Positions 1 to 55,560 of a stretch of 64,000 bases of DNA are shown here, one piece after another (within the stretch, counting starts at the first letter, position 1; every line of letters begins with the position of its first letter). The notes below the pieces were generated by a model. That model was not told where the DNA came from. It searched no databases and was given only the letters and a program-made list of their open reading frames with translations. The position numbers were made by a program, and so were the translations under genes. Source of the stretch: Parcubacteria group bacterium (GTDB taxonomy: Bacteria; Patescibacteriota; Minisyncoccia; Moranbacterales; UBA2206); assembly GCA_041659505.1 (NCBI GenBank), contig JBAZYF010000003.1, positions 86,026 to 150,025 on the forward strand, in the 5' to 3' direction.

Positions 1-342
1 TTGTATCGATTATGAACAAACATCAAATCCTCAACTATCCCTTTGAGAATTTTATTGTGCTTTTCATTCCAGCCTTTCAGCGCAATGCCCTCTCTTGCCA
101 ATTCTAAAATCGTTGCCATCTGGATGTGCAAATCGTTATTCTGCATTTGAAATTCCAATTGTTTTTTACGCTTCTGATTCATAGCCCTATGATTTTTTGG
201 ATACAAAAAAGGTCCTCCGTCGGCGGCACCGTTTCGGGCACCCAACACCCTTTCGAGTATTGACCCATGTGAACAGATACCGATCAGAAGACCGTTATTG
301 TTCACATGGGGTTTCATATATTTTGCCATGCCTACACCCGAA
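1..342 (-). CDS. hypothetical protein, 3' end cut off by the window edge. N-terminus is visible; the start is ATG at 182, 317 or 342
   Basis: Minus-strand frame is open from 342 through coordinate 1. It reads MPSGVGMAKYMKPHVNNNGLLIGICSHGS...MNQKRKKQLEFQMQNNDLHIQMATILELAREGIALKGWNEKHNKILKGIVEDLMFVHNRY. Segment 183-340 is GC-richer than 1-182, so the true start may be the ATG at 182. Confidence 0.25.
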
Positions 343-482
343 GGCATAAGTTTAGGCTGTATTGTAAATTTATTCTAGCTTTTTAAGTCGTGTTGGTCAA
401 TTTTCGGAAAGTTTTAGACACTCTTTTTAAATTTAGGCATACTAAAAACTAACTCCTATAAAAATAAGTTTTTATGCGTAAC

Positions 483-2231
483 TTACGTTTCCGAATACTT
501 TTTCCCATTAAGAAATCTGATTTCCTTTGTGAAATTAGCGACTCTATGATCATCTATTTCTAGGTTTAGCATTTTTTCTCGCTCTTCGTTTTCAATTTTA
601 TCCCTATTTAAGGTAAGAATGTATTGGAAGTCTTGTGACTCTTTTTTGGCTAAATAATTTAGACTTTTTATTAATGAATCCTGATCAACATCAAAAATAT
701 TATCATGAACCAAAAAATGAGGATGTCTCACTTGGGTGTATTCGTTAAATAATAATGCTAAATCATAAATAAAAACTTTCGTTCTGTCCACACTATGGCT
801 ACCATCATCATCTATCCTCATTTCAAATGATAAGACCTTTTTACTCTTCCCGCTTGTAACTGTCTTAATATCAAAGGATGCTTCGTTGCTATCCATTATA
901 TATTCATGGATACTTAAAATTGTTATATTAAAACTATCTATTATTTTTTTAGCATCAAATATCAAAGCATCCAGCTCCTGGAAATATTTGTCTTTCTCTA
1001 GTTTTAAATCCTTTAATTCTTTTTCGGTGTTTTCATAGGCCGCATACTTACTTTGAATATTTGCATAAGACTCTCTTTTTTGGTGATAAATAGCAAAACC
1101 GTTTTTCACATCCTTCAAAACACCCTTTTGATCAATAATTTCTAATTTATTTAGTCTGCTGTCTTCAAGAGCCTGAAGTTTTCTTGCAGTAACATTTAAT
1201 TCATCGCTTATAGATTTAATTTTTTCATTAAACAATTTTCTTTGGAATTCATCAATTTTTTGTTTAAAATTCACGACTTCTTCAATGGATTTGGAGACAA
1301 TATCACCAAGGCCTGATTTGAATTGGTTATAAATAATTTCAATATCTTTTTCTTTAATAGCCTCCAGTGCTGGGAAGGTTCTCATTTTTCTCAATTGATA
1401 TCTCAGGGCAGTCTGATGAGAGCGTAAATCATCTATCTCTATTTGCATTTTAGCCAAATCATCCTGCTGTAGCGCATATGCGTCATTGGTCTTGAAACTT
1501 TCAAGCGCTGTGTCTATTTTCTTTAAATCATCATTGAGGGAGTTGAGTGTAGCCTTGACATCGCCGACTTTTTTTGTTCCGTTTTCAGTTAAGGATTTTC
1601 TCAGTGCTGTTCTGTGGACACTAGTTTTTTCAATTTCTTTGAATTTTTTTTGTATCTTATTGATAAGCGAGACATCCAGACCAAAAATGAACGCACTTGG
1701 TTTTATGGCAGGAGGTATGGTCTTTTGTGAATTACTCTCATAACACATCATAATATCCTTAAACTCAGATCCTTCTTCTCTTAAGAACGGTCCCAGAAAT
1801 TCACGAAAACTAATATCTACACTTTCGGAAGTTTCCAAAAATAATATCCTCCCCAAATATTGGCTAGCATCATCCAAATTAGAAAAATCGGTTGTTTTAC
1901 CATCTTTTATAATTGTTGGATTTTCTGGTTTTCCTTTTGTTCTAATTATTCTAAGATTTTGAGAATTAATTTCAAGGTCTAAAATTATTTGAGTATCATC
2001 AGAAAATTTATCAAGTGGGATCTTCATAACCCGACTATTGGAACTTGCCTTTAAAAGACAAAAATTCACAAATTCTATACTTAAAGATTTGCCCACTCCA
2101 TTAGTTTTTTTCCCTTTTCTCACATTGTCTGTTTCAACTTTTTCACCCATGATAAGATTTATCCCATCTTGAAATTCGATGGGTTCAAATATTTCTGGTG
2201 AAGAATGAAGTTTCAATAATTTTATTCTCAT
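483..2231 (-). CDS. ABC/SMC-type ATPase with a long coiled-coil insertion (DUF2326/ABC-3C-like or Lamassu LmuB-like)
   Basis: N-terminal P-loop (GEKVETDNVRKGKKTNGVGKS). Central ~250 aa are heptad-rich coiled coil. C-terminal FLVHDNIFDVDQD is Walker B/D-loop-like. 4-nt ATGA overlap with the upstream small gene. Confidence 0.55.
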   Translation of the reverse strand: MRIKLLKLHSSPEIFEPIEFQDGINLIMGEKVETDNVRKGKKTNGVGKSLSIEFVNFCLLKASSNSRVMKIPLDKFSDDTQIILDLEINSQNLRIIRTKGKPENPTIIKDGKTTDFSNLDDASQYLGRILFLETSESVDISFREFLGPFLREEGSEFKDIMMCYESNSQKTIPPAIKPSAFIFGLDVSLINKIQKKFKEIEKTSVHRTALRKSLTENGTKKVGDVKATLNSLNDDLKKIDTALESFKTNDAYALQQDDLAKMQIEIDDLRSHQTALRYQLRKMRTFPALEAIKEKDIEIIYNQFKSGLGDIVSKSIEEVVNFKQKIDEFQRKLFNEKIKSISDELNVTARKLQALEDSRLNKLEIIDQKGVLKDVKNGFAIYHQKRESYANIQSKYAAYENTEKELKDLKLEKDKYFQELDALIFDAKKIIDSFNITILSIHEYIMDSNEASFDIKTVTSGKSKKVLSFEMRIDDDGSHSVDRTKVFIYDLALLFNEYTQVRHPHFLVHDNIFDVDQDSLIKSLNYLAKKESQDFQYILTLNRDKIENEEREKMLNLEIDDHRVANFTKEIRFLNGKKYSET

Positions 2232-2503
2232 ACTTTATAAATATAAGGATCTGTAAAATTTATAATACCCGCGGTATATAAAAATATTAACGATAGCATT
2301 ATTTGCCGATAATGAATTATTTTTAATTCCTTTTTTAATTTTTCAGTTACTTCAAAAATACTTACCTTATCATCATCCTTGCTCTTTAAAATTTTTAAAA
2401 TTAAATACCCAATATAAATTGGCGTTGTTTTAATTTCTTCATCTTTTGTAATCAAATTATTCTTCTTCATTTGGAAAAATACTACATTTGGGAATCTCTC
2501 CAA
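2228..2503 (-). CDS. small alpha-helical 'middle component' protein (91 aa) of a three-gene ATPase cassette
   Basis: Short ORF translationally coupled to the ATPase (ATGA overlap) and overlapping the upstream gene. Position and size fit the MC/LmuC-type adaptor. No recognizable catalytic motif. Confidence 0.4.
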   Translation of the reverse strand: MERFPNVVFFQMKKNNLITKDEEIKTTPIYIGYLILKILKSKDDDKVSIFEVTEKLKKELKIIHYRQIMLSLIFLYTAGIINFTDPYIYKV

Positions 2504-3386
2504 TTAAATAATATCTTATTGCACTATGCGCATATTTCTTGCCACTACTTTCAAGCTTATTCTCAAGATAATCTGCCATCTTATCTAACGCGGTCATAGG
2601 GTCACCATTATTCTCTCTTAAAAACCTACGACTAGTTTCCTTCAAAAACGCCACCTTTTTTGCTACCATTATCTTATCTGGACCAATTGCCTGTTCTGCT
2701 TCTTTTTGTGCACTTGCATACATTGCGCTATTTACTATTTCACTTTTAATTTGTACACAATAGCTACTAAAACGTTCGAGTTTTTTATCAGGATCAGGCA
2801 TGGTATTTTCAAACCCTTCATTGATAAAGTCCGCATTATCAGATACATAACAGATAAGATCCATTACGGTTTCAACTTCTGTCGCGTTGGAATTAATATT
2901 GGGAAGATTAAAGATTCTTTGCCGATCATTTTTGCTTAATTCAATAGCCTTTCTAACTATTTGTTCCAATCCCCAATGTTCCTTTTTTATTCCATCTCCA
3001 TTTCCATTTAATTCAATAATTTTTTGATGGGGCTTGCCCATTAAATTATCCCTTGTCACAAATACCCACTTATCAAACTGGTATTTATCTTTCCATTTTT
3101 CCAAAAATTTATCATAATCACCAAGCTCCTCTGATTTTTTAGGAATAGGATTTGAAATCTTCTTTGAAGTTATGCTATTATCGTATTTCTCTGATTCTGG
3201 ACCATACACGGCAAAAAAACATTTCTCATCTATACTGTACCCATCATTACCAAGATCATGTTGCATTTTAGGGGTTTGCAAATCCGGATAACAACAAATT
3301 AGGATATCCCACAAAATTTGCTGAAATTCCTTTCCTGTTTTTCTTGTCAATCGATCTCTTATTATTTCCTCAGAAGAATTAGCCAT
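2457..3386 (-). CDS. putative effector of the three-gene cassette with a PD-(D/E)xK-like motif
   Basis: First gene of the co-directional triad. Motif GNDGYSIDEKCFFAVYG resembles a restriction-endonuclease-fold D...(D/E)xK core. No other recognized family. Confidence 0.4.
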   Translation of the reverse strand: MANSSEEIIRDRLTRKTGKEFQQILWDILICCYPDLQTPKMQHDLGNDGYSIDEKCFFAVYGPESEKYDNSITSKKISNPIPKKSEELGDYDKFLEKWKDKYQFDKWVFVTRDNLMGKPHQKIIELNGNGDGIKKEHWGLEQIVRKAIELSKNDRQRIFNLPNINSNATEVETVMDLICYVSDNADFINEGFENTMPDPDKKLERFSSYCVQIKSEIVNSAMYASAQKEAEQAIGPDKIMVAKKVAFLKETSRRFLRENNGDPMTALDKMADYLENKLESSGKKYAHSAIRYYLIGEIPKCSIFPNEEE

Positions 3387-3494
3387 TTTTTATTTCGATA
3401 CTCAAGATTATATTTCATCTCAACTTTCTTGTTAAAATAATTATACCACATACTATCAGATTTGGTATCATTCATTCATTTTTAGCAAAATATC

Positions 3495-4001
3495 CTAACT
3501 AGAGAGATTCTTATTCTCCAAGATATTCCTAATATTTTGTGATAATTCTGAGAAGTTTCCGCCAACACTAATATGTTCTACTGGCAGACCAATTGCTTTG
3601 TATAATTCATCAATAAAATTATCCCGCTTTTTACGTTGTGCGCTATTATGCGATTTTCCATCTAGCTCAATAGCAAGCAATGGTTTTGTTGTGGCATAAT
3701 TACACACAAGGAAATCAACATGGCGTGACTTGATTTTGCCACGAAGACCCCAGTGACTATTGCCAGATATATTCTTCTTGTTCACATCAATAAAGTCCTC
3801 AATGCGAACCTTAGACAATACGATATAAACTTCTCCAAGTGCTTTTTGCAGATTAACGAATAATGCTTGCTCTGATTCATTCATTACCCTGTCCTTCTTT
3901 TGATATGAAGACAAACTCGTTAGTCTTTCCTTTTTCTCAATAAATGCCTTAGCGAGAGCAACAGCAACGATGAAAATGATTAATATAATTGTCCAAAGCA
4001 T
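3495..4001 (-). CDS. membrane-anchored DUF2726-like (PD-(D/E)xK, NERD-related) nuclease-domain protein
   Basis: N-terminal TM helix (LWTIILIIFIVAVALA). Core HVDFLVCN...LLAIELDGKSH matches the DUF2726 pattern (D...E.DGxxH). Confidence 0.5.
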   Translation of the reverse strand: MLWTIILIIFIVAVALAKAFIEKKERLTSLSSYQKKDRVMNESEQALFVNLQKALGEVYIVLSKVRIEDFIDVNKKNISGNSHWGLRGKIKSRHVDFLVCNYATTKPLLAIELDGKSHNSAQRKKRDNFIDELYKAIGLPVEHISVGGNFSELSQNIRNILENKNLSS

Positions 4002-4083
4002 AGTTTTGTTTTTATTGAATTATGTTTGATGAAATTAGAAAACAAATTAGACTTATCGTTTATTTTGCAATAATTGAAAAAAA

Positions 4084-5373
4084 TTACTTCAAATCAATCC
4101 TGTTGTTCTTTTTTAAATATTTTTCAATCATTTCATTTTCGAGTCTTTTTGCCAACCGCTCACCATAGCACCACCCTAATTGCTGACAAAAATCTTTAAT
4201 CAATTCTATTCTTTTCTCTTTTAAATCTTGCACCATGATATTCCTATTCCAGTCCAATTCATAATCTAATGATTTTTTTATTTTTTCGGATGTGAAATTT
4301 TCATCTCCCTTATACAGAAAATTATTATCCGTTTCTGAGAGTACAAACGAGAGTTCTATGTAACCCCAATAACCCAAATCTTCATAAAATTTATATGCAA
4401 ATTCAATGAGCAAATCTATTCTGGCTATTAAATGATAGAAGCCATAATACCCAAGTTTGTCTTCCCTTATATTATCAAAATTCATTTCACCCTCCCTTTC
4501 AAAACTTTGTTTTAACAATTCTATATCCTGCATGAATATTTCTCCATAGTATAAAAGTCCGAAATCATTGATTTCTGTATAATTTTTTTCGTTATATTTA
4601 ATAACAACACCATCATTTATAACCCTTCTTTTATCTATGAATCTAGGAAATCCACCTGAACTAAAATAATCATTAATTTGAAGCTCGCCGAGAAAATCAA
4701 ACAAATGATCTGGATTCGTTAGCACTTGATTTGGATAAATTGGGATCGATGAGAAATATCCACTTCCAAAAGGCTTTCTACTCCTAAAGGTTGCTATCAG
4801 TGTATTTTCCTCATTGGGAACATAAATTTTATCATTGTGTCTTTGCGTGGCCGAGGTTAATAAATTTTTTTTCAAATTATCTGATTTATCTCTCCTATTT
4901 CTCAACCACTCCAATTGCTCCATCGTGGCTAAACTTTCAGGGGTTTTAGTGTCATTAATTCTCACATATGCTCTAGTATTTCCCCTGATAGCATGGGGCG
5001 TTTCATTACTCGGATGAATTCTTATTACAACCAGCGCCTTCGTGCAATCATCGTTCTTGCAAACTTTTACTTCTGGAAATATTATTGGGTAAATATTATC
5101 AATGATTATTCTTGTTACTTTTTCAGAAATGCCCTCTTTATTTTCAAGGCCTTCAACTGGGAGCAATGGAACACCGTCATCATCTTTTACACCAACAATA
5201 ACTAAGCCACCAAAAGTATTTGCGAAAGCGCTCAGTGTCATTGCGAGTTTTTTATTGTCAGCATTAAAGTCTTCCTTGTAATCCAAATTAACATTTTCCC
5301 TGATTTTCTCATTACAAAAAGCAACAACATCCTCATAGGAAATATCTTCAATTTTTTTATTATATAAAATCAT
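4084..5373 (-). CDS. Schlafen/AlbA_2 (divergent AAA, PF04326-like) domain protein
   Basis: N-terminus EDISYEDVVAFCNEKIRENVNLDYKEDF...LSAFANTFGGLVIVGVKDDDG is the canonical AlbA_2 signature (LEfK...AFAN..GG.l.iGv.D.G). Confidence 0.6.
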   Translation of the reverse strand: MILYNKKIEDISYEDVVAFCNEKIRENVNLDYKEDFNADNKKLAMTLSAFANTFGGLVIVGVKDDDGVPLLPVEGLENKEGISEKVTRIIIDNIYPIIFPEVKVCKNDDCTKALVVIRIHPSNETPHAIRGNTRAYVRINDTKTPESLATMEQLEWLRNRRDKSDNLKKNLLTSATQRHNDKIYVPNEENTLIATFRSRKPFGSGYFSSIPIYPNQVLTNPDHLFDFLGELQINDYFSSGGFPRFIDKRRVINDGVVIKYNEKNYTEINDFGLLYYGEIFMQDIELLKQSFEREGEMNFDNIREDKLGYYGFYHLIARIDLLIEFAYKFYEDLGYWGYIELSFVLSETDNNFLYKGDENFTSEKIKKSLDYELDWNRNIMVQDLKEKRIELIKDFCQQLGWCYGERLAKRLENEMIEKYLKKNNRIDLK

Positions 5374-5519
5374 AGCTTTAATTAATTTTTATCTTTAGCA
5401 TAATTCTCAATAGCAAGCTCAGCCAATCCATAAAGATTATCCCTGATTTCCAAAACTTCTTCATCAGCGATATTTTCGTCGTTTAATATTTTCTTGACTT
5501 CTTCAATACTTAACATTCC

Positions 5520-7013
5520 TTATACTGATTTTAATACTTTCCAAATTTCAACCATAGCCAAGGTATCAAGATGGCAATAGTCCTTGAGTGCCTGCACTTT
5601 CATATTTTTTTCATCCTCAGAATATTCATCCGACACAATACGATTCCATGTATCTGACGCGGCACCACCCTCTTGAATATGCATATCCTTATATGAAAGA
5701 TGAGGAACAAGTGCCGGCAAAACATACTTTATTGAAGCGCTTCCTTTAAACTCTGGATGATCATACATTGTTGTATTTCCGTAAAATGGAATCATCAAGT
5801 CTACAACGCGATTATTAACACTTTGCATAAAATCCCGATATTCAGGCAGACGCTTTCCAATTTCTTCATTTCTCTTTTTTTCAAAACTCTGATTCCAAAC
5901 AACAACACTTCCTGTTTTCGGGATATGCTTTTCCAATGCTTTTGCGAAACTTTCATCAGGACAACCTTGATCAGTATAAATAAAATCATAATGTTCCAAT
6001 TCGCTCTCGCGTGAGTCAATCACATGCAGTGAAAATTGAAAAGTTATTTGCTGATATGGACTGTACCCACTATATCTCGGCAAGGCTGATGGATATGTTT
6101 CATAGTCAAGAAATGACAATGGGTATTTCATCGTTCCTAAAAATTCAGCAATGCTTTTTTTATCAATATATTCTTTGCCGGATTTGGCCGTTTCCACTTG
6201 CCTTTTCTGATTATCTGAAAGTGGGAAATCATCCGGCACATCGTGAATATTGAAAATATGACTATCAACCAACTCTGCTAATTTTTTTCCATTGATTCTT
6301 AAAATTGCGTGAACTGGATATTCCGGAAGATCAGAATTTGAATACCAAGCTGTTGTACAATGCGAGTTTTTCCCTTTCAAAATACAATCGCAATGCCCTT
6401 TCGGTTCAGCTTCACTAGATAACAATTCATAGGCACCCTCCATTTTTTGCTTTATGTCATCCAGCTTCTCATTCACTTGGCTAGTCGAATCTTCTATAAA
6501 AAATAACTTTTCCAAGTTAATTTCGCCAAGGCGGACATATTTTTTATTAAGCCTGATCAAATTGAAAGTTCCCATCTCAATGCCCAAATCATTCAGGACA
6601 TTCTTTTGAAAAGCCATATCTATCAAATAATCCTCGGTTTTTCTTCCTCCGTTTTCTTCCGAAGCTGTCGATGACTTCACTTCATATAGATCATAGACAT
6701 TTGTATCCAGATTGAAAACAAAAATATCAGAGACTGCGAGATATTTTTCGGTTGCAAAAACAGGCTGATAAATTACAGGTGTCTTTTCTTCCATAAGCTT
6801 CCTTGTAAGCTCTGTATCATCACGAGATTCCACTAGCACGCCGCCCGAGAAAAGGCCGCGCGCAAGCTCGTCAATTTGATTGCCAGTATCAATAATATTC
6901 AGCTCAAAAGAAGAAAGTGCTTTTTTCTTATATACCTCTGGATTGTGAATTTTTAGCCAAGCATTTTTTGCACAATCGAGACATATCAGAAAGTTTGTTT
7001 TTGATAATTTCAT
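5520..7013 (-). CDS. DUF2779-like protein (RecB/Cas4-like nuclease N-terminus)
   Basis: N-terminus LSKTNFLICLDCAKNAWLKIHNPEV resembles the DUF2779 start (LSKS.F..G.QC.K.LWL..H.PE). Later CDC...C cysteine cluster. Confidence 0.4.
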   Translation of the reverse strand: MKLSKTNFLICLDCAKNAWLKIHNPEVYKKKALSSFELNIIDTGNQIDELARGLFSGGVLVESRDDTELTRKLMEEKTPVIYQPVFATEKYLAVSDIFVFNLDTNVYDLYEVKSSTASEENGGRKTEDYLIDMAFQKNVLNDLGIEMGTFNLIRLNKKYVRLGEINLEKLFFIEDSTSQVNEKLDDIKQKMEGAYELLSSEAEPKGHCDCILKGKNSHCTTAWYSNSDLPEYPVHAILRINGKKLAELVDSHIFNIHDVPDDFPLSDNQKRQVETAKSGKEYIDKKSIAEFLGTMKYPLSFLDYETYPSALPRYSGYSPYQQITFQFSLHVIDSRESELEHYDFIYTDQGCPDESFAKALEKHIPKTGSVVVWNQSFEKKRNEEIGKRLPEYRDFMQSVNNRVVDLMIPFYGNTTMYDHPEFKGSASIKYVLPALVPHLSYKDMHIQEGGAASDTWNRIVSDEYSEDEKNMKVQALKDYCHLDTLAMVEIWKVLKSV

Positions 7014-7106
7014 GCAATTTTTTTAATCAATCGCCAAAAAACTATTATTTAAAATCATATTTGCCATTTTGCTTTTCGGGTTTAGTCCAATTTTTTCGCA
7101 AAACTT

Positions 7107-9293
7107 TTATTTTATCATTCGATTGTAGTGTGCCTCATGTCCAGAATTTTCAAATATTTTTTTAAATGCTTCTTTGAAAATTTGAGGATCAACTTCTTTT
7201 GTGTCAGAAATATTTATTCTATCAAAATGTGATTCTCTATTTATATATCTCAAAAAATAAGAGTATTTGCCATCTGTTAGATTTTCAATTGCTTTATCAT
7301 ATTTTTCATTATCAATAAAACCAAAAAAACATTCTAAAATATTTCTCATAGAATTAGCCAATAAACTATCAGGGGCGTTATCGTCTTTTATTATTTGCCA
7401 ATACTGTTGATAGTCATTTAATATCTCATCTTTACCCATTTCAGAAATTATAGATTTTTTTTCTCGATTCTTGGTAATTCTAAAAAGTTTTTCCCTGTCG
7501 TCTTTCTTGTTTTTCTCTGTGTATTTTATTAATTCGTGAAAAAGATATAAATTATGAGTTAAAATGAATACTTGCTTATAGTCATCATTAAAAAAGTTTT
7601 TTCTTATGAGCTGTGCAACATTAAAAACATACATATGCGACAAGCTAGAAATTGGATCATCAATAACAACTATTTTTTCAGTTGCTATATCATCATTATT
7701 TTCTTTGCCTTTGCATAATTCCAAAAAATACAGAAAACTAATTACTGTTTTTTCTCCCTCGCTCAATGTTTCAAATTTAGCAATATCTTCGTTTGGTCTT
7801 TGTAGTTTGTATGACTTTTCTCCAGCTGGAACAATAGAAAATCCATCTAATCCAAAAAATATTAATTCACTATTTATAGCCTCAATTGCATCTTGAATGT
7901 TTACCATTTCCTTTTGTGCGTCTTTTATTATCGTTCCTCGCTCTTCAATATTTTTGTTTAACTCTGAAATTTTAGTTTCAATATCTGATTTTTCTTTTTC
8001 AACTTTCACTTTTTGAGTGTTATAATTTTCTATTGTTTGATCATAATCCCACCGCATAATTTCCCAGAAGTCTTTAATGATCTGATTTCTTGTTTTTTGT
8101 TTGTTTTTTAGCTTTTCATTATGAGTTTTTATTTCATTAATAATTGTATCTAAAAAATCATTCAGTGCTTTTTGTTCTAAAATACTTAATTCTAAGGCAA
8201 TGACTACATTCGGACTTTTAATTTTATTGTTAATTTTTGACCAATTATTGTTCAATTTATCAATAAAATTTTTAAACAAAAGCTTAAATTTGGTTTCTTT
8301 GACCTTTATAAAATCAATTTGTAAAAGTTCATTTTCTAACTTTTTTGCATCCTGATATTCTCTAAAATATTCTTTGTCTAAATCTTCTAATTCTGTGATT
8401 TTTTGTTGGTAAGATACGTCAAAGTAATTTTGAATTTCTTGATATAAATCTTTAGTTATAGTTTTTTGCTGACAAAAAGGACAGATTTTATTTTCCTCTC
8501 GGGGTTCATTTATAAACTCTTTCCCTTTTTTCACCCAATCAGAATTGTTTAATTTCTCAATAAGATCCGCTACTTGTGAATTTTCATTTCCAATAATTAC
8601 TTCTTTGAAAATTTCCTTTTCTTCGGTTTTCCAAAAATCAAAAGTTACTTTTTTAACCAAATTTTCGTCATAAGTTTTGGCGCTTTTTCCTTGCGTTGCT
8701 TCTGCTTCTTTTTTTAAATCTTCTTTTGATTTTTCTGGTTTATTTGCTGGTTTTTGTAATCTTAAAAGATGATCAAATAAGTCTTTTTTGCTTCCCCTTT
8801 TTCCTTCCAAGCAAAATTCCAAAATTCTATCTCCACCCGAATATTTTGTTTTTATCTCCCAAGTTTTATCTTCTGTTGTATTTTGTAAATCAGCGACATT
8901 TTCTTGTTTTTTATTTAAGTCAAATTGAAATCCGGTTTTCAATTCATCGTTTTCAATTTGATTCTTTAGTTTATTTATCTCCTGAGTAGCTGTATCTATT
9001 TTTTCTTTTGCTTCTTTGTTTTCTGACTTCAGACTAAAAATACCTCTTTGTGTGTCCTGATAAAAATTATCACCAACAAATTTTTGATTATAAACTAACA
9101 CTTTTTCATTATTTAGTTCTGCAATTGAACAGCAAGAAAAACAAGCGTTATCTTTATCTTGAAGATAATTTGAAAGAGTTGTTTTTCCTGTCCCATTCAG
9201 TCCATAAATAAGATTGATTTTTTTATCAGTCTCCAAGATAGCGGGTGTTTCCCCATAACTTGCAGTATTTTTTATAGAAATCTTAGTGATCAT
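7107..9293 (-). CDS. AAA_13-family ABC ATPase (PrrC/RloC-like) with a coiled-coil insertion and CxxC hook-like motif
   Basis: Walker A GLNGTGKTT at the N-terminus. Long coiled coil with ICPFCQQK (zinc-hook-like CxxC) in the middle. Walker B/D-loop VVIDDPISSLS. C-terminal region carries R/H-rich motifs (RYINRESHFD, SGHEAHYNRM) compatible with a PrrC/RloC-type nuclease module. Confidence 0.55.
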   Translation of the reverse strand: MITKISIKNTASYGETPAILETDKKINLIYGLNGTGKTTLSNYLQDKDNACFSCCSIAELNNEKVLVYNQKFVGDNFYQDTQRGIFSLKSENKEAKEKIDTATQEINKLKNQIENDELKTGFQFDLNKKQENVADLQNTTEDKTWEIKTKYSGGDRILEFCLEGKRGSKKDLFDHLLRLQKPANKPEKSKEDLKKEAEATQGKSAKTYDENLVKKVTFDFWKTEEKEIFKEVIIGNENSQVADLIEKLNNSDWVKKGKEFINEPREENKICPFCQQKTITKDLYQEIQNYFDVSYQQKITELEDLDKEYFREYQDAKKLENELLQIDFIKVKETKFKLLFKNFIDKLNNNWSKINNKIKSPNVVIALELSILEQKALNDFLDTIINEIKTHNEKLKNKQKTRNQIIKDFWEIMRWDYDQTIENYNTQKVKVEKEKSDIETKISELNKNIEERGTIIKDAQKEMVNIQDAIEAINSELIFFGLDGFSIVPAGEKSYKLQRPNEDIAKFETLSEGEKTVISFLYFLELCKGKENNDDIATEKIVVIDDPISSLSHMYVFNVAQLIRKNFFNDDYKQVFILTHNLYLFHELIKYTEKNKKDDREKLFRITKNREKKSIISEMGKDEILNDYQQYWQIIKDDNAPDSLLANSMRNILECFFGFIDNEKYDKAIENLTDGKYSYFLRYINRESHFDRINISDTKEVDPQIFKEAFKKIFENSGHEAHYNRMIK

Positions 9294-9331
9294 AATTTAA
9301 AATATCAAATTTACTGGATATTTTTTTGATT

Positions 9332-10426
9332 TTATTTCCCCGATTTTCTTCTATTGCATTCTTTGCATAACATTTGGCAATTCTTTGCAACAGTTTTTCC
9401 GCCCTCATGCCAAGGATTTATATGATCAGCTTCCATTTCTTCAATTTCAAAATGTTTCTTGCATTTTTTACAAATGCCTTTTTGTCGCTCATAGGCTTCC
9501 AGCTTCATTTTCTCGTTAAACGCTCGAATATTGAGATATTTTTCTTCACCAGTTAGCACATACCAGTACACGCCTTTTTTGCTGTCAACGTCTTCGTCGG
9601 CAATCAATCGCGCAACTTCACTCTCCAATTCTTCTGCATCTAATTTAGTATTCTTAAATTTACCATATAATTCTCCCCACTCGATTCCTTTCATCATCTT
9701 ACGATATTTTGGAAAAACCATTCGCACCCACTCAATCACTTTTTGAAAATACGCCCATAATTCCTCAGCAGTTGCATCATGTTGATGTTTCCCCATATAG
9801 TCTTCAATTTTATCATTACTAATCCAGCGAAGTACTGTTTCCAAATATTCTTGACGATTTAATGCTCCCCCCATATAGTCATTAGCCGAAAGGGATGCTG
9901 GAGCATTGCTCTTACTAAAATATCGCTTAGCATCAGTTACCCAAGTCCCCGAGTAGATAGCATTTAATAATTCTTGATTCGTTAACTTTTCACCCGCAGT
10001 ATTAATAACCTTAAACCATGCCAATTTCTCATCATATGTACCTTCGCAAAAATAAACCATGAGCTTATAATCCAAAATCTTCGCTTTTTCTTTTTCAGTT
10101 AGATTGTCGAAATACATTTGATATTCACGATTTGTAATGTTAAAGTTACCAGCTACAAAATTACAAATGCTAACTGTGCGCTGTTGTCCATCAAGAATTT
10201 CAAAGCTTCCATCATTATTCTTTACCCAATACATTGCATTTAGCGGAAAACCTCCAATCACTGAATTTATTACAGCAATTTGTTGTTCGGGTTTATAAAT
10301 AAATTCACGCTGATACTTCGGACGAATATCTAATTTTCCGCCATATCCAACCACACCCTCTTCATCGCTATCCTGATATCCAGCAAAAAGTTCACGCACT
10401 GGAATTTCATTTAGTTCAATTTCCAT
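9332..10426 (-). CDS. DUF262 (ParB/GmrSD N-terminal-like) domain fused to a C-terminal HNH endonuclease
   Basis: N-terminal ILDGQQRT motif typical of DUF262. C-terminal CKKCKKHF..ADHINPWHEGGKT..NCQMLCKECNRRK is an HNH zinc-finger nuclease motif. Confidence 0.65.
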   Translation of the reverse strand: MEIELNEIPVRELFAGYQDSDEEGVVGYGGKLDIRPKYQREFIYKPEQQIAVINSVIGGFPLNAMYWVKNNDGSFEILDGQQRTVSICNFVAGNFNITNREYQMYFDNLTEKEKAKILDYKLMVYFCEGTYDEKLAWFKVINTAGEKLTNQELLNAIYSGTWVTDAKRYFSKSNAPASLSANDYMGGALNRQEYLETVLRWISNDKIEDYMGKHQHDATAEELWAYFQKVIEWVRMVFPKYRKMMKGIEWGELYGKFKNTKLDAEELESEVARLIADEDVDSKKGVYWYVLTGEEKYLNIRAFNEKMKLEAYERQKGICKKCKKHFEIEEMEADHINPWHEGGKTVAKNCQMLCKECNRRKSGK

Positions 10427-10427
10427 A

Positions 10428-11486
10428 TTATTTTTTTCGTTTAATTAAAATTCGATTATATATTTTCCTACCTTCAATTAAAGTAAAACATTCGTAACCA
10501 ATCCATCTTGCAGAATTAGCAATGCCCAATATTTCAAACTGCGCTGGGCTATATTTATCAACAAAGGTAATCGGTACGCCCATTACACTCTCATAATCCA
10601 TTGGAATATCAGCAACTTTATCAACATTTATAACGTTGTAGTTATCGTATTTTGGAAATTCTCCCGGCGTATATTTCTTATATAACACTATTTTTTCATG
10701 ACGTTTTGTATTGTCGAGGTTTGTATACCACACAATTCTACCCATACTGAAAAACTTTGTACCATTTTCAATTTTTATTCTTGACTCTGTCTCAATATCA
10801 TAATCATTGGGAACCTGAAACCATTTTGTACCACCATTGTCGTAGCCGTGCCACAATTTATTTTCTTTGATGAAACCGAAAGTTTCTTTATAGGTTACTG
10901 CATTTTGGTCGCCAAGAATCAAAAACTTCTTGTTATATTCAATCAATTGCGCAACATATTCCCGAAACAATGAAAAAGGTGGATTAGTCACCACGATATC
11001 TGCTTGTTTTAAAAGTTCTATACTTTCTTCACTTCTAAAATCTCCATCGCCTTCCAACGGTGCCCATTCATTGTTTTTGTTTGCTTTGAGTTGTTCAGCA
11101 ATATCACGCAAATCAAACGCACCATCACCGTCGAGATCGCTAACTTCATTGATAATGAATTTATTGGCCGTTAATTTTGGACGACCCTTTGTTATGGGCA
11201 GTGTCTTATTATCTCCAAATAATCCAAGTTGAGTATTAGCAATTGGTGATGGTTTGTAACTTGTAGCGATAAGTTTCTTTAGACCCAAAGCATTAAAATT
11301 TGAGGCAAAATACTTAAAAAAGTTACTCTCGAAAGGATCGTCACAATTGCAATATACCACCTTGTCACGAAATTGTTCTTTATAGTGTTTTAATTCCTTT
11401 TCAATATCAACAAGCTGAGTATAAAACTCATCTTTTTTTGCCTTGTTGGCTTTATGCAAATTACTGTTTAATGACTTATTTTCCAT
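10428..11486 (-). CDS. N6-adenine DNA methyltransferase, gamma-class (N6_Mtase-like)
   Basis: Motif X-like DEFYTQ followed by catalytic motif IV VVTNPPF. 1-nt gap to the downstream gene. Whether it is an orphan or R-M-linked MTase is unresolved. Confidence 0.65.
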   Translation of the reverse strand: MENKSLNSNLHKANKAKKDEFYTQLVDIEKELKHYKEQFRDKVVYCNCDDPFESNFFKYFASNFNALGLKKLIATSYKPSPIANTQLGLFGDNKTLPITKGRPKLTANKFIINEVSDLDGDGAFDLRDIAEQLKANKNNEWAPLEGDGDFRSEESIELLKQADIVVTNPPFSLFREYVAQLIEYNKKFLILGDQNAVTYKETFGFIKENKLWHGYDNGGTKWFQVPNDYDIETESRIKIENGTKFFSMGRIVWYTNLDNTKRHEKIVLYKKYTPGEFPKYDNYNVINVDKVADIPMDYESVMGVPITFVDKYSPAQFEILGIANSARWIGYECFTLIEGRKIYNRILIKRKK

Positions 11487-11490
11487 GAAA

Positions 11491-12402
11491 TTACTTATTC
11501 AAATCATAACTTTGCTTGATTAAAATAAAAGCTGATTCAAGGTCTTTTTCATCTTTTAATTTCACCTCATAATCTCCATTGCCCCAGTGTCCCTTTTTAG
11601 GTTTTGTGAAGTCTGTAGATATTTCAAACAAATCAACCAATTCACCACTTTTTACATTAAGTGTGATTCGTATTTCATCCTTATGAATAATCAGGTCGGC
11701 AAAGTTGGTTGCTGTTTTGTAGGCTATATAAAATTTCTTTGGCTCCTCTTTTATTTCCTCGTCGATGGAAATAATTTTTTCGCGCAATTTGTAAAAAAGA
11801 TCTTTTGTTTTTTGATCGGTTTTTTTCAGGTGGTCATCAATCGAATAATTTTTTTGTAGAACCTCGTGCTTTTCTTTTTGATTTTTAGACTTTTTGATAA
11901 TTCCAGAAGTAGAAATTTTTATTTTCTGATAGTTTTCCGGCTCAAGAAAAAGAAGATCGTTTTCATAGATCCTGTATCTCAAAAGTTCGATGTTAATTGG
12001 TAAAATATCTGCCGTGTCTATATCAAATTTGTTATAATTTTCCGCGACACAAATTACCCGCGGAGAATCCCAATCAATATCAATTTTGATATTTTTGTTT
12101 TTGCATAAAAATTCAAAATCAGCTTTGTGATCCAATAGCCAGCGCAAATATGAAAGACCTTGATTGATAACGCTATCGTTTTGATTTTTCTTATACTCAA
12201 TAATGCAGGGTGAGCCATTTTTATCTATACCCAAGGTATCAATCCTGCCCCCGAAACTAGTCGAATATTCATGAGCTAAAAAATCAATATTCAAAATTTC
12301 TTCCAGATTATTTTCAAATAATTTCTGCAAGTCCTTTTCTAGGCCTAAGTCTTTCGTTACTAATTTTGATACCTTTGGATTTTGAATCTTAAATAATGCC
12401 AT
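11491..12402 (-). CDS. NucS/DUF91-like PD-(D/E)xK endonuclease (candidate restriction endonuclease)
   Basis: GGRIDTLGID...GSPCIIEYKK gives a D...E.K nuclease core in a DUF91/NucS-like arrangement. Immediately upstream of the MTase with a 4-nt spacing. Confidence 0.45.
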   Translation of the reverse strand: MALFKIQNPKVSKLVTKDLGLEKDLQKLFENNLEEILNIDFLAHEYSTSFGGRIDTLGIDKNGSPCIIEYKKNQNDSVINQGLSYLRWLLDHKADFEFLCKNKNIKIDIDWDSPRVICVAENYNKFDIDTADILPINIELLRYRIYENDLLFLEPENYQKIKISTSGIIKKSKNQKEKHEVLQKNYSIDDHLKKTDQKTKDLFYKLREKIISIDEEIKEEPKKFYIAYKTATNFADLIIHKDEIRITLNVKSGELVDLFEISTDFTKPKKGHWGNGDYEVKLKDEKDLESAFILIKQSYDLNK

Positions 12403-12648
12403 CTAATTTAAACTTATTTTTTCCAATCTTTAACAAAACCCATCCACACACTTGACGGCTACTTCTTATTTCCCTTTTTTGTGACTTTTCCAATATTTTA
12501 ATAATACTCCCGAACGACCATAAAGTAAAGGAAAACAGCCCCTATTTCGCCAAATTCTGCCCTACGGGCGTTTTTCATATCGAAATGGTACAAGTACCCC
12601 AAAGGCAGGTCAGCTTCTCTCTGCCCCCAATATTCCGTGCAACCCGCC

Positions 12649-17427: not shown

Positions 17428-17655
17428 TCATGAGACTGAGTCCTCTGGAGCATCCTTCATTTTCTTGAGAAAACCGCGCCTGGTGCGCGATGCCACTTTC
17501 CACCAATTCACAATTTGGCCGTTTTTTATTTCAATCACAACCCGCCCGAAGCCTTCCGCTTCAATAGATGCCAAATCCTTGGCGATTTCCGAAAGGAGCA
17601 GATTGCGCTCCCGCTCATTGGATATATTTGTTTTTTGCTTATTTATTCGGTTCAT
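17428..17655 (-). CDS. small DUF2292/YezD-like protein
   Basis: GRVVIEIKNGQIVNW resembles the YezD family core. Last gene of the phage-like block. Confidence 0.3.
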   Translation of the reverse strand: MNRINKQKTNISNERERNLLLSEIAKDLASIEAEGFGRVVIEIKNGQIVNWWKVASRTRRGFLKKMKDAPEDSVS

Positions 17656-19715: not shown

Positions 19716-19739
19716 ATGGCTTGATCGCTTATCATTTAT

Positions 19740-21077: not shown

Positions 21078-21155
21078 ACTTGCGTCGTTTCCTCTCGCTG
21101 AATCATTTCGATATGCTGTTTTCGCTCTTTGGCCACTGGAAGATTTTTTTGAGAA

Positions 21156-21419
21156 CTATTGTTTGACACGTACATATTCTTCTTCAATTAATTTTTTTGT
21201 TGTTAAGATGGCGTGTTCGACTTTTTCGATTCGCTCCTGATACTCGGCCACAATTTCCTTTTTAGTTTTTTGACCGTCCAGATTAAACGGGGTCAGGCGC
21301 GGTATCACCACGTCATTGTCATCGCGATCTTCGAGATTACGAATGGCAATCTCTAGTCGCAGGTTTTCTTCTATCAGTGAGTCATGGATTGACTCTAATA
21401 TTTCCAGTCTGGTTTTCAT
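21156..21419 (-). CDS. hypothetical coiled-coil protein
   Basis: ORF only. Confidence 0.3.
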   Translation of the reverse strand: MKTRLEILESIHDSLIEENLRLEIAIRNLEDRDDNDVVIPRLTPFNLDGQKTKKEIVAEYQERIEKVEHAILTTKKLIEEEYVRVKQ

Positions 21420-21484
21420 ATGATTTGATATGACGGATTTTGTTTCTTTGTCCCGCCCTTAGCGACAAGGCCGCCGTTATTTTA

Positions 21485-23128: not shown

Positions 23129-23140
23129 GTGCTTTTATTT

Positions 23141-55552: not shown

Positions 55553-55560
55553 TAGAAGAC

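What the first reader, a model, noticed from the sequence alone, without database searches (positions are those of the whole stretch)
483..12402. 12-kb AT-rich, single-strand defense island of ten nuclease/ATPase/MTase genes
All ten genes are on the minus strand with 0-100-nt spacings. GC is far below the flanking backbone; the shift to higher GC begins near 12480. The content is almost entirely conflict-system domains: coiled-coil ABC ATPase triad, DUF2726, Schlafen/AlbA_2, DUF2779, AAA_13, DUF262-HNH, N6A-MTase and NucS-like nuclease. Several of the domain combinations do not correspond to a named defense system that I can recognize. The left flank (183-340) is a short GC-rich non-coding or partially coding segment with a 12-bp inverted repeat (cccatgtgaaca...tgttcacatggg).
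Basis: partly seen in the sequence, partly recalled or inferred. Interest (0 to 1): 0.75.

Follow-up and report, generated by a model that had tools for sequence, protein, structure and literature searches.

The report
Composite defence island in a CPR bacterium
This 12-kb AT-rich stretch of a tiny-genome Parcubacteria (CPR) bacterium is a real anti-phage defence island built from separately mobile cassettes, including a five-gene block that travels as one unit between genomes.

Summary
Ten minus-strand genes lie at 483-12402, with GC 0.24-0.37 against about 0.42 for the rest of the window. Every domain call was reproduced, and independent assemblies tile the region at 99.98-100% identity.

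The source is a Parcubacteria-group (CPR) MAG. The island is composite, not one unit.

- A 3.0-kb ABC-3C/Lamassu-type cassette (488-3472) has a PD-(D/E)xK effector, an MC6 middle component and a DUF2326 ATPase. It recurs at 88% DNA identity in a Moranbacteria MAG in an unrelated context.
- g4 is a membrane-anchored DUF2726 nuclease. g5 is a Schlafen/AlbA_2 protein.
- A 6.9-kb five-gene block (5520-12408) holds a NucS/Shedu-like PDC-S18 nuclease, an EcoRI-family methylase, a DUF262-HNH restriction enzyme, an RloC-like anticodon nuclease and a DUF2779 Cas4-DEDD exonuclease. It recurs collinearly (one 6986-bp alignment, 77% identity) between housekeeping genes in another CPR genome.
- Other genomes carry slot-by-slot replacements of this block.

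DUF2779 is highly conserved across CPR. In most of about 29 relatives' loci it sits directly downstream of restriction or defence genes.

The inverted repeat on the left flank is a stem of a LOOT small RNA.

The kind of element is known. The block and the DUF2779 association look new. All functions are inferred.

The parts
225..358 (-). LOOT small RNA gene (Rfam RF03000). It is a flank feature, not island cargo.
   Evidence: cmscan gave 71.1 bits (gathering score 46.4) over model positions 1-121 of 121. A promoter-like site lies at 400-372 on the minus strand.
488..3472 (-). ABC-3C / Lamassu-type three-gene cassette (g3-g2-g1) with its own upstream region. It moves as one unit.
   Evidence: It is 88% DNA-identical over 2986 bp to Moranbacteria MAG contig L013, in an unrelated context (TspO, MsrB, MsrA). 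The trio also occurs in L006, L007 and L011.
483..2231 (-). g1: DUF2326/YydD-type ABC ATPase, in the LmuB-like sensor position.
   Evidence: Pfam DUF2326 scores 80.7 bits and PADLOC PDC-M68B gives 3e-53. Walker A NGVGKS and Walker B FLVHDN/G without a catalytic Glu are invariant in 7 homologues.
2228..2503 (-). g2: ABC-3C middle component 6 (LmuC-like). The start is probably at 2470, as called on L001.
   Evidence: Pfam MC6 scores 36.5 bits against a cut-off of 27.2. The gene call on L001 is 80 aa.
2457..3386 (-). g3: effector (LmuA position). It has an N-terminal PD-(D/E)xK nuclease domain (about residues 1-160) and a helical C-terminal docking domain.
3407..3435 (-). Best sigma-70-like promoter match of the region (TTAACA-17-TATAAT). 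It lies upstream of g3, inside the shared cassette.
   Evidence: It matches 11 of 12 positions. The scan as a whole is not above chance (51 found, 57.8 expected).
3495..4001 (-). g4: small DUF2726 nuclease with an N-terminal hydrophobic helix and a Vsr/DUF559-like motif AIELDGKSH.
   Evidence: Pfam DUF2726 scores 97.4 bits, with a weak REase_MTES_1575 hit. The sequence was read. It was found only on contigs identical to the window.
4038..4083 (-). Conserved intergenic element, core TTCAATTATTGCAAAATAAA. It starts at the stop of the gene downstream of DUF2779.
   Evidence: It is present in the window, L016 and L021, although the preceding gene differs in each. There is no second copy in the window.
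4084..5373 (-). g5: Schlafen/AlbA_2-domain protein. The C-terminal 280 residues are unassigned.
   Evidence: Pfam SLFN_AlbA_2 scores 65.2 bits. A 71%-identical homologue lies directly downstream of DUF2779 in L049.
5520..12408 (-). Five-gene block g10-g9-g8-g7-g6, which co-migrates as one collinear unit.
   Evidence: One 6986-bp blastn alignment at 77% identity joins it to L069 9995-16850. The alignment ends 6 nt upstream of the g10 ATG and at the g6 stop. In L069 the block is flanked by rpsB-tsf-PSP1-TPR-tRNAs on one side and by rplT-rpmI-infC-smpB on the other.
5520..7013 (-). g6: DUF2779 protein, a Cas4-like PD-(D/E)xK domain fused to a DEDD 3'-5' exonuclease.
   Evidence: Pfam DUF2779 scores 132 bits. 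The architecture is described in PMC13621843 and PMC3985635. More than 5000 homologues were found, and the best 120 listed are 66-93% identical.
7107..9293 (-). g7: RloC-like ABC ATPase / anticodon nuclease (AAA_13, PDC-S06).
   Evidence: AAA_13 scores 386 bits, PDC-S06 gives 4e-230 and PADLOC PrrC gives 3e-14. CPFC 271-274 is invariant, and R650-x3-E654-x34-S688-H689 is conserved, across 40 family members. This matches the RloC definition in PMC2610378.
9332..10426 (-). g8: Type II restriction endonuclease (DUF262/GmrSD_N plus HNH).
   Evidence: PADLOC REase_II gives 5e-135. Pfam GmrSD_N scores 71.5 bits and HNH 47.2 bits.
10428..11486 (-). g9: EcoRI-family N6-adenine DNA methyltransferase.
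   Evidence: Pfam EcoRI_methylase scores 447.8 bits and PADLOC MTase_II gives 5e-121.
11491..12402 (-). g10: PDC-S18 protein, a NucS/Shedu-like PD-(D/E)xK nuclease (D55, E69-x-K71) with a DUF5655 (YdhG/YjbR-like) C-terminal domain.

Best explanation
The region is a composite anti-phage defence island in a Parcubacteria-group (CPR) genome. It was assembled from cassettes that are exchanged separately among CPR bacteria.

**Unit 1 (5520-12408): a five-gene, operon-like block.**
- g9 and g8 form a Type II restriction-modification pair, an EcoRI-family m6A methylase with a DUF262-HNH endonuclease. They give first-line cleavage of unmodified incoming DNA.
- g7 is an RloC-type protein. It has an ABC ATPase head, a coiled coil with a CxxC zinc hook, and a C-terminal Arg-Glu-His anticodon-nuclease domain.
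- By analogy with RloC and PrrC, g7 would cut tRNA and stop translation when DNA breaks appear or restriction is subverted. That would make it a second, abortive line of defence.
- g10 (a NucS/Shedu-like nuclease) and g6 (a Cas4-like nuclease fused to a DEDD exonuclease) are accessory DNA nucleases. They most plausibly act on DNA ends or restriction fragments.

**Unit 2 (488-3472): an ABC-3C/Lamassu-type system.**
- A coiled-coil ABC ATPase (g1) has a degenerate Walker B motif.
- With the small MC6 protein (g2), it holds a PD-(D/E)xK nuclease effector (g3) inactive until foreign DNA structures are sensed. The effector then degrades DNA.

**Units 3 and 4: single genes of unknown trigger.** These are g5 (Schlafen/AlbA_2) and g4 (a membrane-anchored DUF2726 nuclease).

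**What is shown and what is inferred.** Gene content, domain and fold assignments, motif conservation, foreign composition and independent mobility of the units are shown. All biochemical activities, triggers, operon status and any cooperation between genes are inferred.
For: **Composition and identity**
- The composition is foreign to the backbone.
- The organism was identified.

**Independent mobility**
- The Lamassu-type trio is 88% DNA-identical in L013, in an unrelated context.
- Within that family the effector N- and C-domains are swapped independently, together with the ATPase type.
- The five-gene block is collinear at 77% identity in L069, between housekeeping genes and next to a tRNA cluster.
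- Slot-wise variants of the block:
  - L016: methylase + endonuclease (M-R) 92% and DUF2779 90.6% DNA-identical, but a Ppl-like 919-aa ATPase replaces g7 and a 216-aa gene replaces g5.
  - L073: next to a serine recombinase that abuts a tRNA, with g10-M-R-397aa-HerA.
  - L068: a Prim-Pol gene followed by g10-M-R.
  - L021: an OLD-like ATPase lies between the methylase and the endonuclease.

**Defence context of DUF2779.** In about 29 non-redundant loci the upstream neighbours include the following:
- Hhe/PDC-S37 helicase-nucleases (6)
- Type III R-M (3-4)
- HerA (3-4)
- RmuC, Type IIG enzymes, AbiEii and C-proteins
- The upstream gene is on the same strand in 23 of 26 loci, with a median gap of 16 nt.

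**Other support**
- g7 meets the published RloC criteria (PMC2610378).
- ABC-3C is equated with the Lamassu superfamily, in which LmuA has an N-terminal effector domain and a C-terminal docking domain (PMC10586767).
- Independent assemblies confirm the junctions.
Against: - No function has been tested. CPR bacteria are uncultured.
- No integrase, transposase or flanking direct repeats lie at the island's edges in the window.
- PADLOC's LmuB models do not hit g1. Only the candidate model PDC-M68B does. A profile of g1 homologues finds no solved LmuB, only non-significant Rad50/SMC1 head matches.
- GAATTC, CAATTG and AATT are not depleted in the 64-kb window, so activity of the R-M pair is unsupported.
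- RloC is rarely linked to R-M systems, and where it is, to Type I or III, not Type II.
- A DUF2779 homologue is quasi-essential in a minimal Mycoplasma, so g6 may be a repair enzyme rather than an immunity gene.
- g10 also occurs alone among housekeeping genes in Zixibacteria.
- The promoter and terminator scan is at chance level, so operon structure is inferred only from spacing and synteny.
- g4, g5 and g6 have no PADLOC match.
Confidence: 0.78

Rival explanations
1. The five-gene block is one integrated multi-layer system, not merely co-located independent systems. The nucleases g10 and g6 and the RloC-like g7 would be functionally coupled to the Type II R-M pair. For example, g7 could guard the restriction enzyme, as PrrC guards EcoprrI. 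g6 and g10 could process or sense the DNA ends that restriction creates.
For: - The block is collinear in two unrelated genomic contexts, even though the R-M pair has diverged to 58-60% amino-acid identity. Over the same span g10, g7 and g6 stay at 88, 74 and 86%.
- Spacings are tight: 4, 1, 38 and 93 nt.
- g10 lies 4 nt upstream of an EcoRI-family methylase in five contexts, down to 38% endonuclease identity.
- DUF2779 usually follows an R-M or NTPase gene on the same strand, with a median gap of 16 nt and frequent start/stop overlaps.
- PrrC gives a precedent for R-M-coupled anticodon nucleases.
Against: - Each slot can be swapped or lost while the neighbours stay at 90-92% DNA identity. L016 lacks g10 and has a different ATPase. 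L073 has HerA and no DUF2779.
- PDC-S06 and PDC-S18 are catalogued as single-gene candidates.
- g10 is solitary in Zixibacteria.
- DUF2779 pairs with many unrelated upstream genes, so no specific partnership is implied.
- CPR genomes are compact, so short gaps are weak evidence.
Confidence: 0.3
2. g6 (DUF2779) is a resident DNA-repair or end-processing gene of reduced genomes. The genes around it are cargo that accumulates at a recombination hotspot beside it. On this reading the 'island' is two variable regions flanking an anchor gene, and g6 has no immune role.
For: - There are more than 5000 homologues. The best 120 listed are nearly all 495-512 aa and 66-93% identical, from many CPR lineages.
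- A homologue is quasi-essential in JCVI-syn3.0.
- Related loci keep DUF2779 and the same downstream genes (C31, C9) and the same upstream AbiEii gene (C8). Between them, a Type III R-M plus HerA is exchanged for an Hhe-like helicase-nuclease (L022/L028 against L050).
- DNA homology to L016 stops 6 nt before the g6 start codon and at its stop codon.
Against: - GC of g6 homologues stays at 0.33-0.41 whatever the GC of the host flanks (0.31-0.51). In this window g6 has island-like GC3 (0.32 against 0.42). This argues for horizontal spread rather than vertical inheritance.
- g6 travels inside the five-gene block in L069.
- No conserved backbone synteny was seen on either side across most loci.
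Confidence: 0.3
3. The region is the cargo end of a degraded integrated mobile element, such as a prophage remnant or integrative island. Its genes would serve mainly as addiction or stabilisation and inter-element competition modules rather than host immunity.
For: - Phage-like genes (TerL gpA, ParB-methylase, C5 methylase, RepO-like) lie 5-12 kb to the right.
- An HNH protein lies just beyond the left end.
- In L073 the g10-M-R module sits next to a serine recombinase, an excisionase-like HTH and a tRNA. In L068 it sits next to a Prim-Pol. In L069 and L016 it follows tRNA clusters.
Against: - A two-component system and a 654-aa gene with backbone composition separate the island from the phage-like genes. 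They are conserved in the relative L015.
- No integrase or attachment-site repeats occur in the window or around the block in L069.
- No close relatives of g6 or g7 were found in IMG/VR viral contigs.
Confidence: 0.15

Closest known systems
Lamassu superfamily / ABC-3C systems (LmuA-LmuC-LmuB; DdmABC)
   Same: - The gene order is effector, small middle component, coiled-coil ABC ATPase.
- g2 matches Pfam MC6, an 'ABC-3C middle component'.
- The ATPase has a Walker A motif and a Walker B motif without a catalytic Glu, consistent with the reported hydrolysis-deficient LmuB.
- The effector has an N-terminal enzymatic (PD-(D/E)xK) domain and a C-terminal docking domain.
- The N-domains are shuffled between family members while the C-domain tracks the ATPase type.
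   Different: - The ATPase belongs to the DUF2326/YydD family. PADLOC LmuB models do not detect it; it is filed only as candidate PDC-M68B.
- The effector family (49 proteins found, the named ones mostly CPR) has no Pfam or PADLOC model.
- No experimental evidence exists for this subtype.
RloC / PrrC anticodon nucleases (prr locus: EcoprrI Type Ic R-M + PrrC)
   Same: - g7 has the ABC ATPase motifs, a CxxC in the coiled-coil insert, and a C-terminal Arg-X3-Glu-Xn-Ser-His triad. All are conserved across its family.
- It lies 38 nt downstream of a restriction enzyme gene.
   Different: - The linked R-M system is Type II, not Type I or III.
- The Glu-to-His spacer is 34 residues, between PrrC (31) and the published RloC range (36-52).
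- In a close variant (L016) the slot holds an unrelated Ppl-like ATPase, so coupling to the R-M pair is not obligatory.
Type II R-M with an EcoRI-family methylase and a DUF262-HNH endonuclease
   Same: There are strong full-length matches to the Pfam EcoRI_methylase model and to the PADLOC REase_II and MTase_II models. The two genes are adjacent with a 1-nt gap and co-migrate in L016, L017, L021, L068, L069 and L073.
   Different: The recognition site is unknown, and no AATT-core site is avoided in the window. In five contexts the pair is preceded by a PDC-S18 nuclease gene, which is not part of any described Type II system.
Shedu (SduA) and NucS nucleases
   Different: There is no DUF4263/Shedu HMM hit. 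The C-terminal DUF5655 domain resembles YdhG/YjbR/DUF419 folds, not Shedu sensor domains. It is catalogued only as candidate PDC-S18.
Core-gene-anchored defence hotspots (as described in E. coli and Pseudomonas; from memory, not checked here)
   Same: A conserved gene (DUF2779) has highly variable defence cargo immediately upstream, and in some relatives both flanks are conserved.
   Different: The 'anchor' itself has a foreign, host-independent GC content and moves with the cargo in L069, so it behaves as part of the mobile pool.

Membership tests
ABC-3C / Lamassu superfamily | Three-gene operon in the order effector, middle component, ABC/SMC-like ATPase | tested here: met
   The order is g3-g2-g1 with overlapping or adjacent reading frames. 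The same trio is conserved in L006, L007, L011 and L013.
ABC-3C / Lamassu superfamily | A recognisable middle component (LmuC/MC) | tested here: met
   Pfam PF20293 MC6 scores 36.5 bits against a cut-off of 27.2.
ABC-3C / Lamassu superfamily | The ATPase is an LmuB (SMC/Rad50-like) family member | tested here: not met
   PADLOC LmuB models give no hit to g1 at E<=0.01; only PDC-M68B does. A PDB profile search gives only non-significant SMC1A and Rad50 head matches (E 0.26-0.8) and no solved LmuB. Walker A, a signature-like motif and a degenerate Walker B are present. The coiled coil was not formally computed.
ABC-3C / Lamassu superfamily | The effector has an N-terminal enzymatic domain and a C-terminal docking domain | tested here: met
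ABC-3C / Lamassu superfamily | Protects against phage or plasmids by abortive infection | not testable with these tools
   This needs expression and infection assays.
RloC anticodon nuclease | ABC ATPase motifs (Walker A, signature, Walker B/D-loop, switch His) | tested here: met
   GxNGxGK 31-37, LSEGE 510-514, DD 545-546 and H580 are invariant in 40 family members. AAA_13 matches over its full length at 386 bits.
RloC anticodon nuclease | Coiled-coil insert with a CXXC zinc hook | tested here: met
   C271-P-F-C274 is invariant across the family. It lies between Walker A and the signature motif. The coiled-coil propensity itself was not computed.
RloC anticodon nuclease | C-terminal Arg-X3-Glu-X36-52-His triad, with Ser often before His | tested here: met
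   The motif is R650-NIL-E654-X34-S688-H689. R650 and H689 are invariant and E654 is at least 90% conserved. The spacer is 2 residues shorter than the published RloC range and 3 longer than in PrrC.
RloC anticodon nuclease | Cleaves or excises the tRNA wobble nucleotide | not testable with these tools
   This needs a biochemical assay.
Type II restriction-modification system | Adjacent DNA methyltransferase and endonuclease of matching families | tested here: met
   EcoRI_methylase scores 447.8 bits, MTase_II gives 5e-121, REase_II gives 5e-135, and GmrSD_N plus HNH are present, with a 1-nt gap. The pair is conserved in six other contexts.
Type II restriction-modification system | Evidence of activity (site avoidance or a methylated motif) | tested here: inconclusive
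   GAATTC, CAATTG, AATT and AAATTT are not depleted in 64 kb. The site is unknown, and recent acquisition would leave no signal.
PDC-S18 (PADLOC candidate single-gene system) | Match to the PDC-S18 HMM | tested here: met
   PDLC04946 gives 1.2e-96 over residues 2-300.
PDC-S18 (PADLOC candidate single-gene system) | Acts as a stand-alone gene | tested here: inconclusive
   It is solitary in Zixibacteria. In CPR it lies directly upstream of an EcoRI-family R-M in five contexts.
Defence island (genomic island enriched in immunity genes) | Foreign composition and variable presence among relatives | tested here: met
   GC3 is 0.28 against 0.42. Cassettes occur in different contexts and combinations.
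Defence island (genomic island enriched in immunity genes) | Mobility genes or attachment sites at the edges | tested here: not met
   There are none in window 1-16000. The left edge is truncated by the window. Related modules do sit next to a serine recombinase or tRNAs elsewhere.
Integron-like cassette array | Repeated attC-like imperfect inverted repeats between same-strand cassettes, plus an integron integrase | tested here: not met
   No recurring intergenic repeat family was found. The single conserved 46-nt element occurs once. No integrase is present.

The most novel reading that the evidence does not exclude
DUF2779 is a fusion of a Cas4-like nuclease and a DEDD 3'-5' exonuclease. It may be a previously unrecognised, horizontally circulating accessory of restriction and NTPase-based immunity in CPR bacteria. 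The five-gene block (PDC-S18, methylase, endonuclease, RloC-like, DUF2779) would then be a single multi-layer immune operon, in which a Type II R-M system is guarded by an anticodon nuclease and served by two end-processing nucleases.
Probability: 0.25. Interest if true: 0.7.

Novelty: new variant of a known kind. Interest (0 to 1): 0.5.

Why it matters
CPR/Patescibacteria have genomes of roughly 1 Mb. They largely lack CRISPR-Cas and are thought to rely mainly on restriction-modification (PMC12455944).

This genome spends about 12 kb of one 248.8-kb contig on layered immunity:
- a restriction system
- a candidate tRNA-cutting abortive module
- a Lamassu-type system
- several orphan nucleases

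The parts circulate among CPR lineages as exchangeable cassettes.

Two leads can be tested:
1. A conserved five-gene block links a Type II R-M pair with an RloC-like nuclease.
2. The strongly conserved DUF2779 nuclease is consistently placed directly downstream of diverse defence genes. A homologue of this protein is quasi-essential in a minimal Mycoplasma, and its function is unknown.

If DUF2779 proves to be part of immunity or of post-restriction DNA processing, that would assign a role to a widespread uncharacterised family.

Tried and rejected
- **Palindrome avoidance to infer the R-M site.** No AATT-core site is depleted.
- **Integron-like array.** No attC-like repeats or integrase were found.
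- **Attachment-site repeats around the block in L069.** None were found.
- **Sequence search of g1, g5, g7, g10 and the g3 profile against PDB chains.** Nothing significant. The g1 family profile gave only non-significant Rad50/SMC1 hits.
- **Close relatives of g6 and g7 in IMG/VR viral contigs.** None were found.
- **Promoter and terminator scan.** Counts are at chance level and only individual sites were noted.
- **First locus search with the 50-sequence g3 alignment.** It failed for lack of conserved stretches and was redone with 27 sequences.
- **Look-up of the 730-aa reading of the right-flank ORF.** It failed because the start codon was wrong. The likely start gives 654 aa.
- **The Krishnan et al. 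2020 ABC-3C paper.** It is not held, so the ABC-3C = Lamassu equivalence is cited from PMC10586767.
- **The LOOT supplement.** It is not held.
- **g6 as a simple vertically inherited core gene.** I consider this unlikely because its GC does not track the host GC.
- **The whole ten-gene set as one unit.** Rejected because no other contig carries more than the five-gene block or the trio.
- **LOOT RNA as an integration target.** Judged unlikely. The island faces the 5' end of the RNA, and no LOOT match was found in nine related loci.

Full report
**1. Observation**

- The region is compositionally distinct. In 1-kb windows GC is 0.27-0.37 across 1-12000 and 0.38-0.49 in most of the rest.
- Per gene, the island averages GC 0.32 and GC3 0.28. 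The other 37 ORFs average 0.416 +/- 0.046 and 0.42 +/- 0.08.
- PADLOC recognises five of the ten proteins:
  - g1: PDC-M68B
  - g7: PDC-S06
  - g8: REase_II
  - g9: MTase_II
  - g10: PDC-S18
- The inverted repeat on the left flank is the long stem of a full-length LOOT RNA (RF03000) at 225-358 on the minus strand, 71 bits.
- Contigs from three other samples tile window 1-14761 at 99.98-100% identity and include both junctions, so the island is not an assembly chimera.

**2. Source and surroundings**

- Exact-sequence look-up places the genes on a 248,828-bp contig of a 'Parcubacteria group bacterium' MAG, a member of the CPR (MFA5961951-MFA5961961).
- To the right lie, in order:
  - a 654-aa protein with a weak squalene-cyclase-like match
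  - a histidine kinase and a response regulator
  - a phage-like group (TerL gpA, ParB-methylase, C5 methylase, RepO-like)
  - SecA, TyrRS, AlaRS and MnmA
- To the left the window ends 483 bases beyond g1. An identical Logan contig (L001) adds 1885 bases. These hold a short ORF and a 443-aa HNH protein with GC 0.31-0.40, so the left boundary is open.
- No integrase, transposase, tRNA or repeat pair flanks the island in the window.

**3. The Lamassu-type cassette (488-3472)**

- g2 is a Pfam MC6 'ABC-3C middle component'. g1 is a DUF2326 ABC ATPase.
- g1 has an invariant Walker A motif (NGVGKS). Its Walker B motif, FLVHD(N/G), lacks the catalytic glutamate.
- g3 has no family match.
  - Its 49 detectable homologues are almost all unnamed metagenomic proteins. 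The few that are named are mostly CPR: Moranbacteria, Shapirobacteria and WWE3.
  - The C-terminal domain is helical.
- ABC-3C is regarded as part of the Lamassu superfamily. There LmuA carries an N-terminal effector domain and a C-terminal docking domain, and LmuB is thought to be hydrolysis-deficient (PMC10586767).
- The family shows the expected modularity:
  - L011 keeps the C-domain and a 63%-identical ATPase but has a different N-domain.
  - L008-L010 keep the N-domain but pair it with another C-domain and a 24%-identical ATPase.
- The cassette is a discrete mobile unit. Window 488-3472 is 88% DNA-identical to a Moranbacteria contig, where it sits beside TspO, MsrB and MsrA.
- It includes the best promoter-like site of the region, at 3435-3407.
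- Membership caveat: PADLOC's LmuB models do not detect g1, and no solved LmuB is found by profile search.

**4. The five-gene block (5520-12408)**

- A 164.8-kb CPR contig (L069) carries PDC-S18, an EcoRI-family methylase, a DUF262-HNH endonuclease, an AAA_13 protein and DUF2779 in the same order.
  - One 6986-bp alignment at 77% identity joins the two copies. It begins 6 nt before the g10 start codon and ends at the g6 stop codon.
  - In L069 the block lies between rpsB-tsf-PSP1-TPR plus four tRNA genes on one side and rplT-rpmI-infC-smpB on the other.
  - Amino-acid identities are 88% (g10), 58% (methylase), 60% (endonuclease), 74% (g7) and 86% (g6).
- Variants show slot-wise replacement:
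  - L016 has the same rpsB-tsf-PSP1-TPR flank. It keeps M-R at 92% and DUF2779 at 90.6% DNA identity. It lacks g10, has a 919-aa Ppl-like ATPase in place of g7 and a 216-aa gene in place of g5. Homology breaks fall within a few bases of gene ends.
  - L073 has g10-M-R followed by a 397-aa gene and a HerA-like ATPase. These lie next to a serine recombinase that abuts a tRNA.
  - L068 has a Prim-Pol gene followed by g10-M-R.
  - L021 has an OLD-like ATPase between the methylase and the endonuclease.
- A relative at about 76% DNA identity (L015) shares response regulator, kinase, the 654-aa gene, g10 and the methylase in the window's arrangement.

**5. Individual genes of the block**

- **g7** meets the published definition of RloC (PMC2610378).
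  - It has the ABC ATPase motifs, a CxxC (C271-P-F-C274) in the insert, and a C-terminal R650-x3-E654-x34-S688-H689.
  - All of these are invariant or nearly so across 40 family members down to 29% identity.
  - JGI's own name for the protein is 'wobble nucleotide-excising tRNase'.
  - RloC is rarely R-M-linked, and then to Type I or III. Here the neighbour is Type II.
- **g10** has D55...E69-x-K71.
  - Its homologues are 70-92% identical across many CPR lineages and even in Zixibacteria, where it is solitary.
- **g8/g9** are a standard Type II pair by HMM. No candidate site is avoided in the window.

**6. DUF2779 (g6)**

- The literature describes the family as a Cas4-like nuclease fused to a DEDD exonuclease. 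A member is quasi-essential in JCVI-syn3.0 (PMC13621843 and PMC3985635).
- g6 has more than 5000 homologues. The best 120 are 66-93% identical, almost all 495-512 aa long, and where named are CPR or unclassified-bacterium MAGs.
- I took 48 metagenome loci plus L016, which reduce to about 29 non-redundant loci with DUF2779 at 60% identity or better.
  - The upstream gene is on the same strand in 23 of 26 loci, with a median gap of 16 nt.
  - The three upstream genes are dominated by defence families:
    - Hhe/PDC-S37 helicase-nucleases (6)
    - Type III R-M (3-4)
    - HerA (3-4)
    - C-proteins (4)
    - RmuC, Type IIG enzymes, AbiEii and Ppl-like ATPases
  - Downstream genes are a mixture of housekeeping, toxin-antitoxin and some R-M genes.
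- Some relatives share both flanks and differ only in the cargo between them (L022/L028 against L050).
- GC of DUF2779 stays at 0.33-0.41 whatever the host flanks are (0.31-0.51). In L069 it moves with the block.
- I therefore cannot decide between 'hotspot anchor' and 'mobile accessory nuclease'. Both are listed as rivals.

**7. Remaining genes**

- g5 (Schlafen/AlbA_2) has a 71%-identical homologue directly downstream of DUF2779 in L049.
- g4 is a 168-aa DUF2726 protein with an N-terminal hydrophobic helix and a Vsr/DUF559-like AIELDGKSH motif. It was found only on contigs identical to the window.
- A 46-nt intergenic element (4038-4083) follows the gene downstream of DUF2779 in the window, L016 and L021, although that gene differs in each. 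Its role is unknown.

**8. Verdict**

The 'defence island' reading is supported, and neither refutation condition is met.
- The island is composite. It holds one Lamassu-type cassette, two orphan genes, and a five-gene block that behaves as a unit and also as a scaffold for slot-wise replacement.
- Most 'unnamed' combinations map onto known or candidate kinds.
- What appears new, as far as the held literature shows:
  - the recurrent PDC-S18 / Type II R-M / RloC-like / DUF2779 block
  - the tight placement of DUF2779 downstream of diverse defence genes in CPR
  - the CPR-centred g3 effector family
- All activities are inferred. Interest is moderate.

Noticed in passing
window 225-358 (-): A full-length LOOT RNA (RF03000, 71 bits) lies 125 nt downstream of g1 on the same strand. 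It has its own promoter-like site at 400-372. No LOOT match was found in nine related loci.
   Followed up: partly
L001 7651-9535 (sequence left of window position 1): A 76-131-aa ORF and a 443-aa protein with an N-terminal HNH domain (weak PtuB and REase_II hits) lie here, with GC 0.31-0.40. The low-GC island may continue beyond the window.
   Followed up: partly
window 4038-4083: A conserved ~46-nt intergenic element (core TTCAATTATTGCAAAATAAA) starts at the stop codon of the gene downstream of DUF2779. It is shared with L016 and L021, although the preceding and following genes differ. It may be a promoter, a terminator or a recombination junction.
   Followed up: partly
window 17639-24109: A phage-like gene group (TerL gpA-type, a 187-aa ORF, ParB-N6/N4 methylase, C5 methylase, RepO-like) sits between the response regulator and SecA. 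It has backbone-like GC. The TerL C-terminus is 91% identical in relative L015, which has an extra 3.2 kb (HTH_5, thioredoxin, CDF, ArsP) between TerL and the response regulator.
   Followed up: partly
window 12649-14613 (-): A 654-aa protein has only a weak squalene-hopene-cyclase C-domain match (E 0.003) and a DDFFD motif. It is 63% identical in L015. Its function is unknown.
   Followed up: no
window 31885-33285; 50172-52482; 54788-56509: There are further small low-GC islets. One is a 466-aa ORF with no Pfam hit. Another is a 330-aa ORF, a SAM methyltransferase and a 125-aa ORF. A third has an IS200-like Y1 transposase next to tRNA-Leu(CAA), followed by a 225-aa ORF.
   Followed up: partly
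L075-L080 (Zixibacteria and related contigs): A g10 (PDC-S18) homologue at 72% identity sits alone between an aromatic-amino-acid lyase and HisRS in a non-CPR phylum. The arrangement is conserved over 15 contigs. The identity is strikingly high across phyla.
   Followed up: no
L069 9225-9821; L016 2823-3793; L073 2895-2965: tRNA gene clusters lie just upstream of the block in L069 and L016. In L073 a tRNA abuts a large serine recombinase next to the g10-M-R module. This suggests tRNA-targeted integration in those genomes, although no direct repeats were found in L069.
   Followed up: partly
L006 1941-2011 (-): A DUF3800-IX RNA (66 bits) lies about 8 kb from the Lamassu-type trio in a Shapirobacteria MAG.
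   Followed up: no
L068 7679-8843: The DUF262-HNH endonuclease is split into two ORFs (159 and 253 aa) next to an intact methylase and PDC-S18. It is probably a frameshifted, inactivated restriction gene.
   Followed up: no
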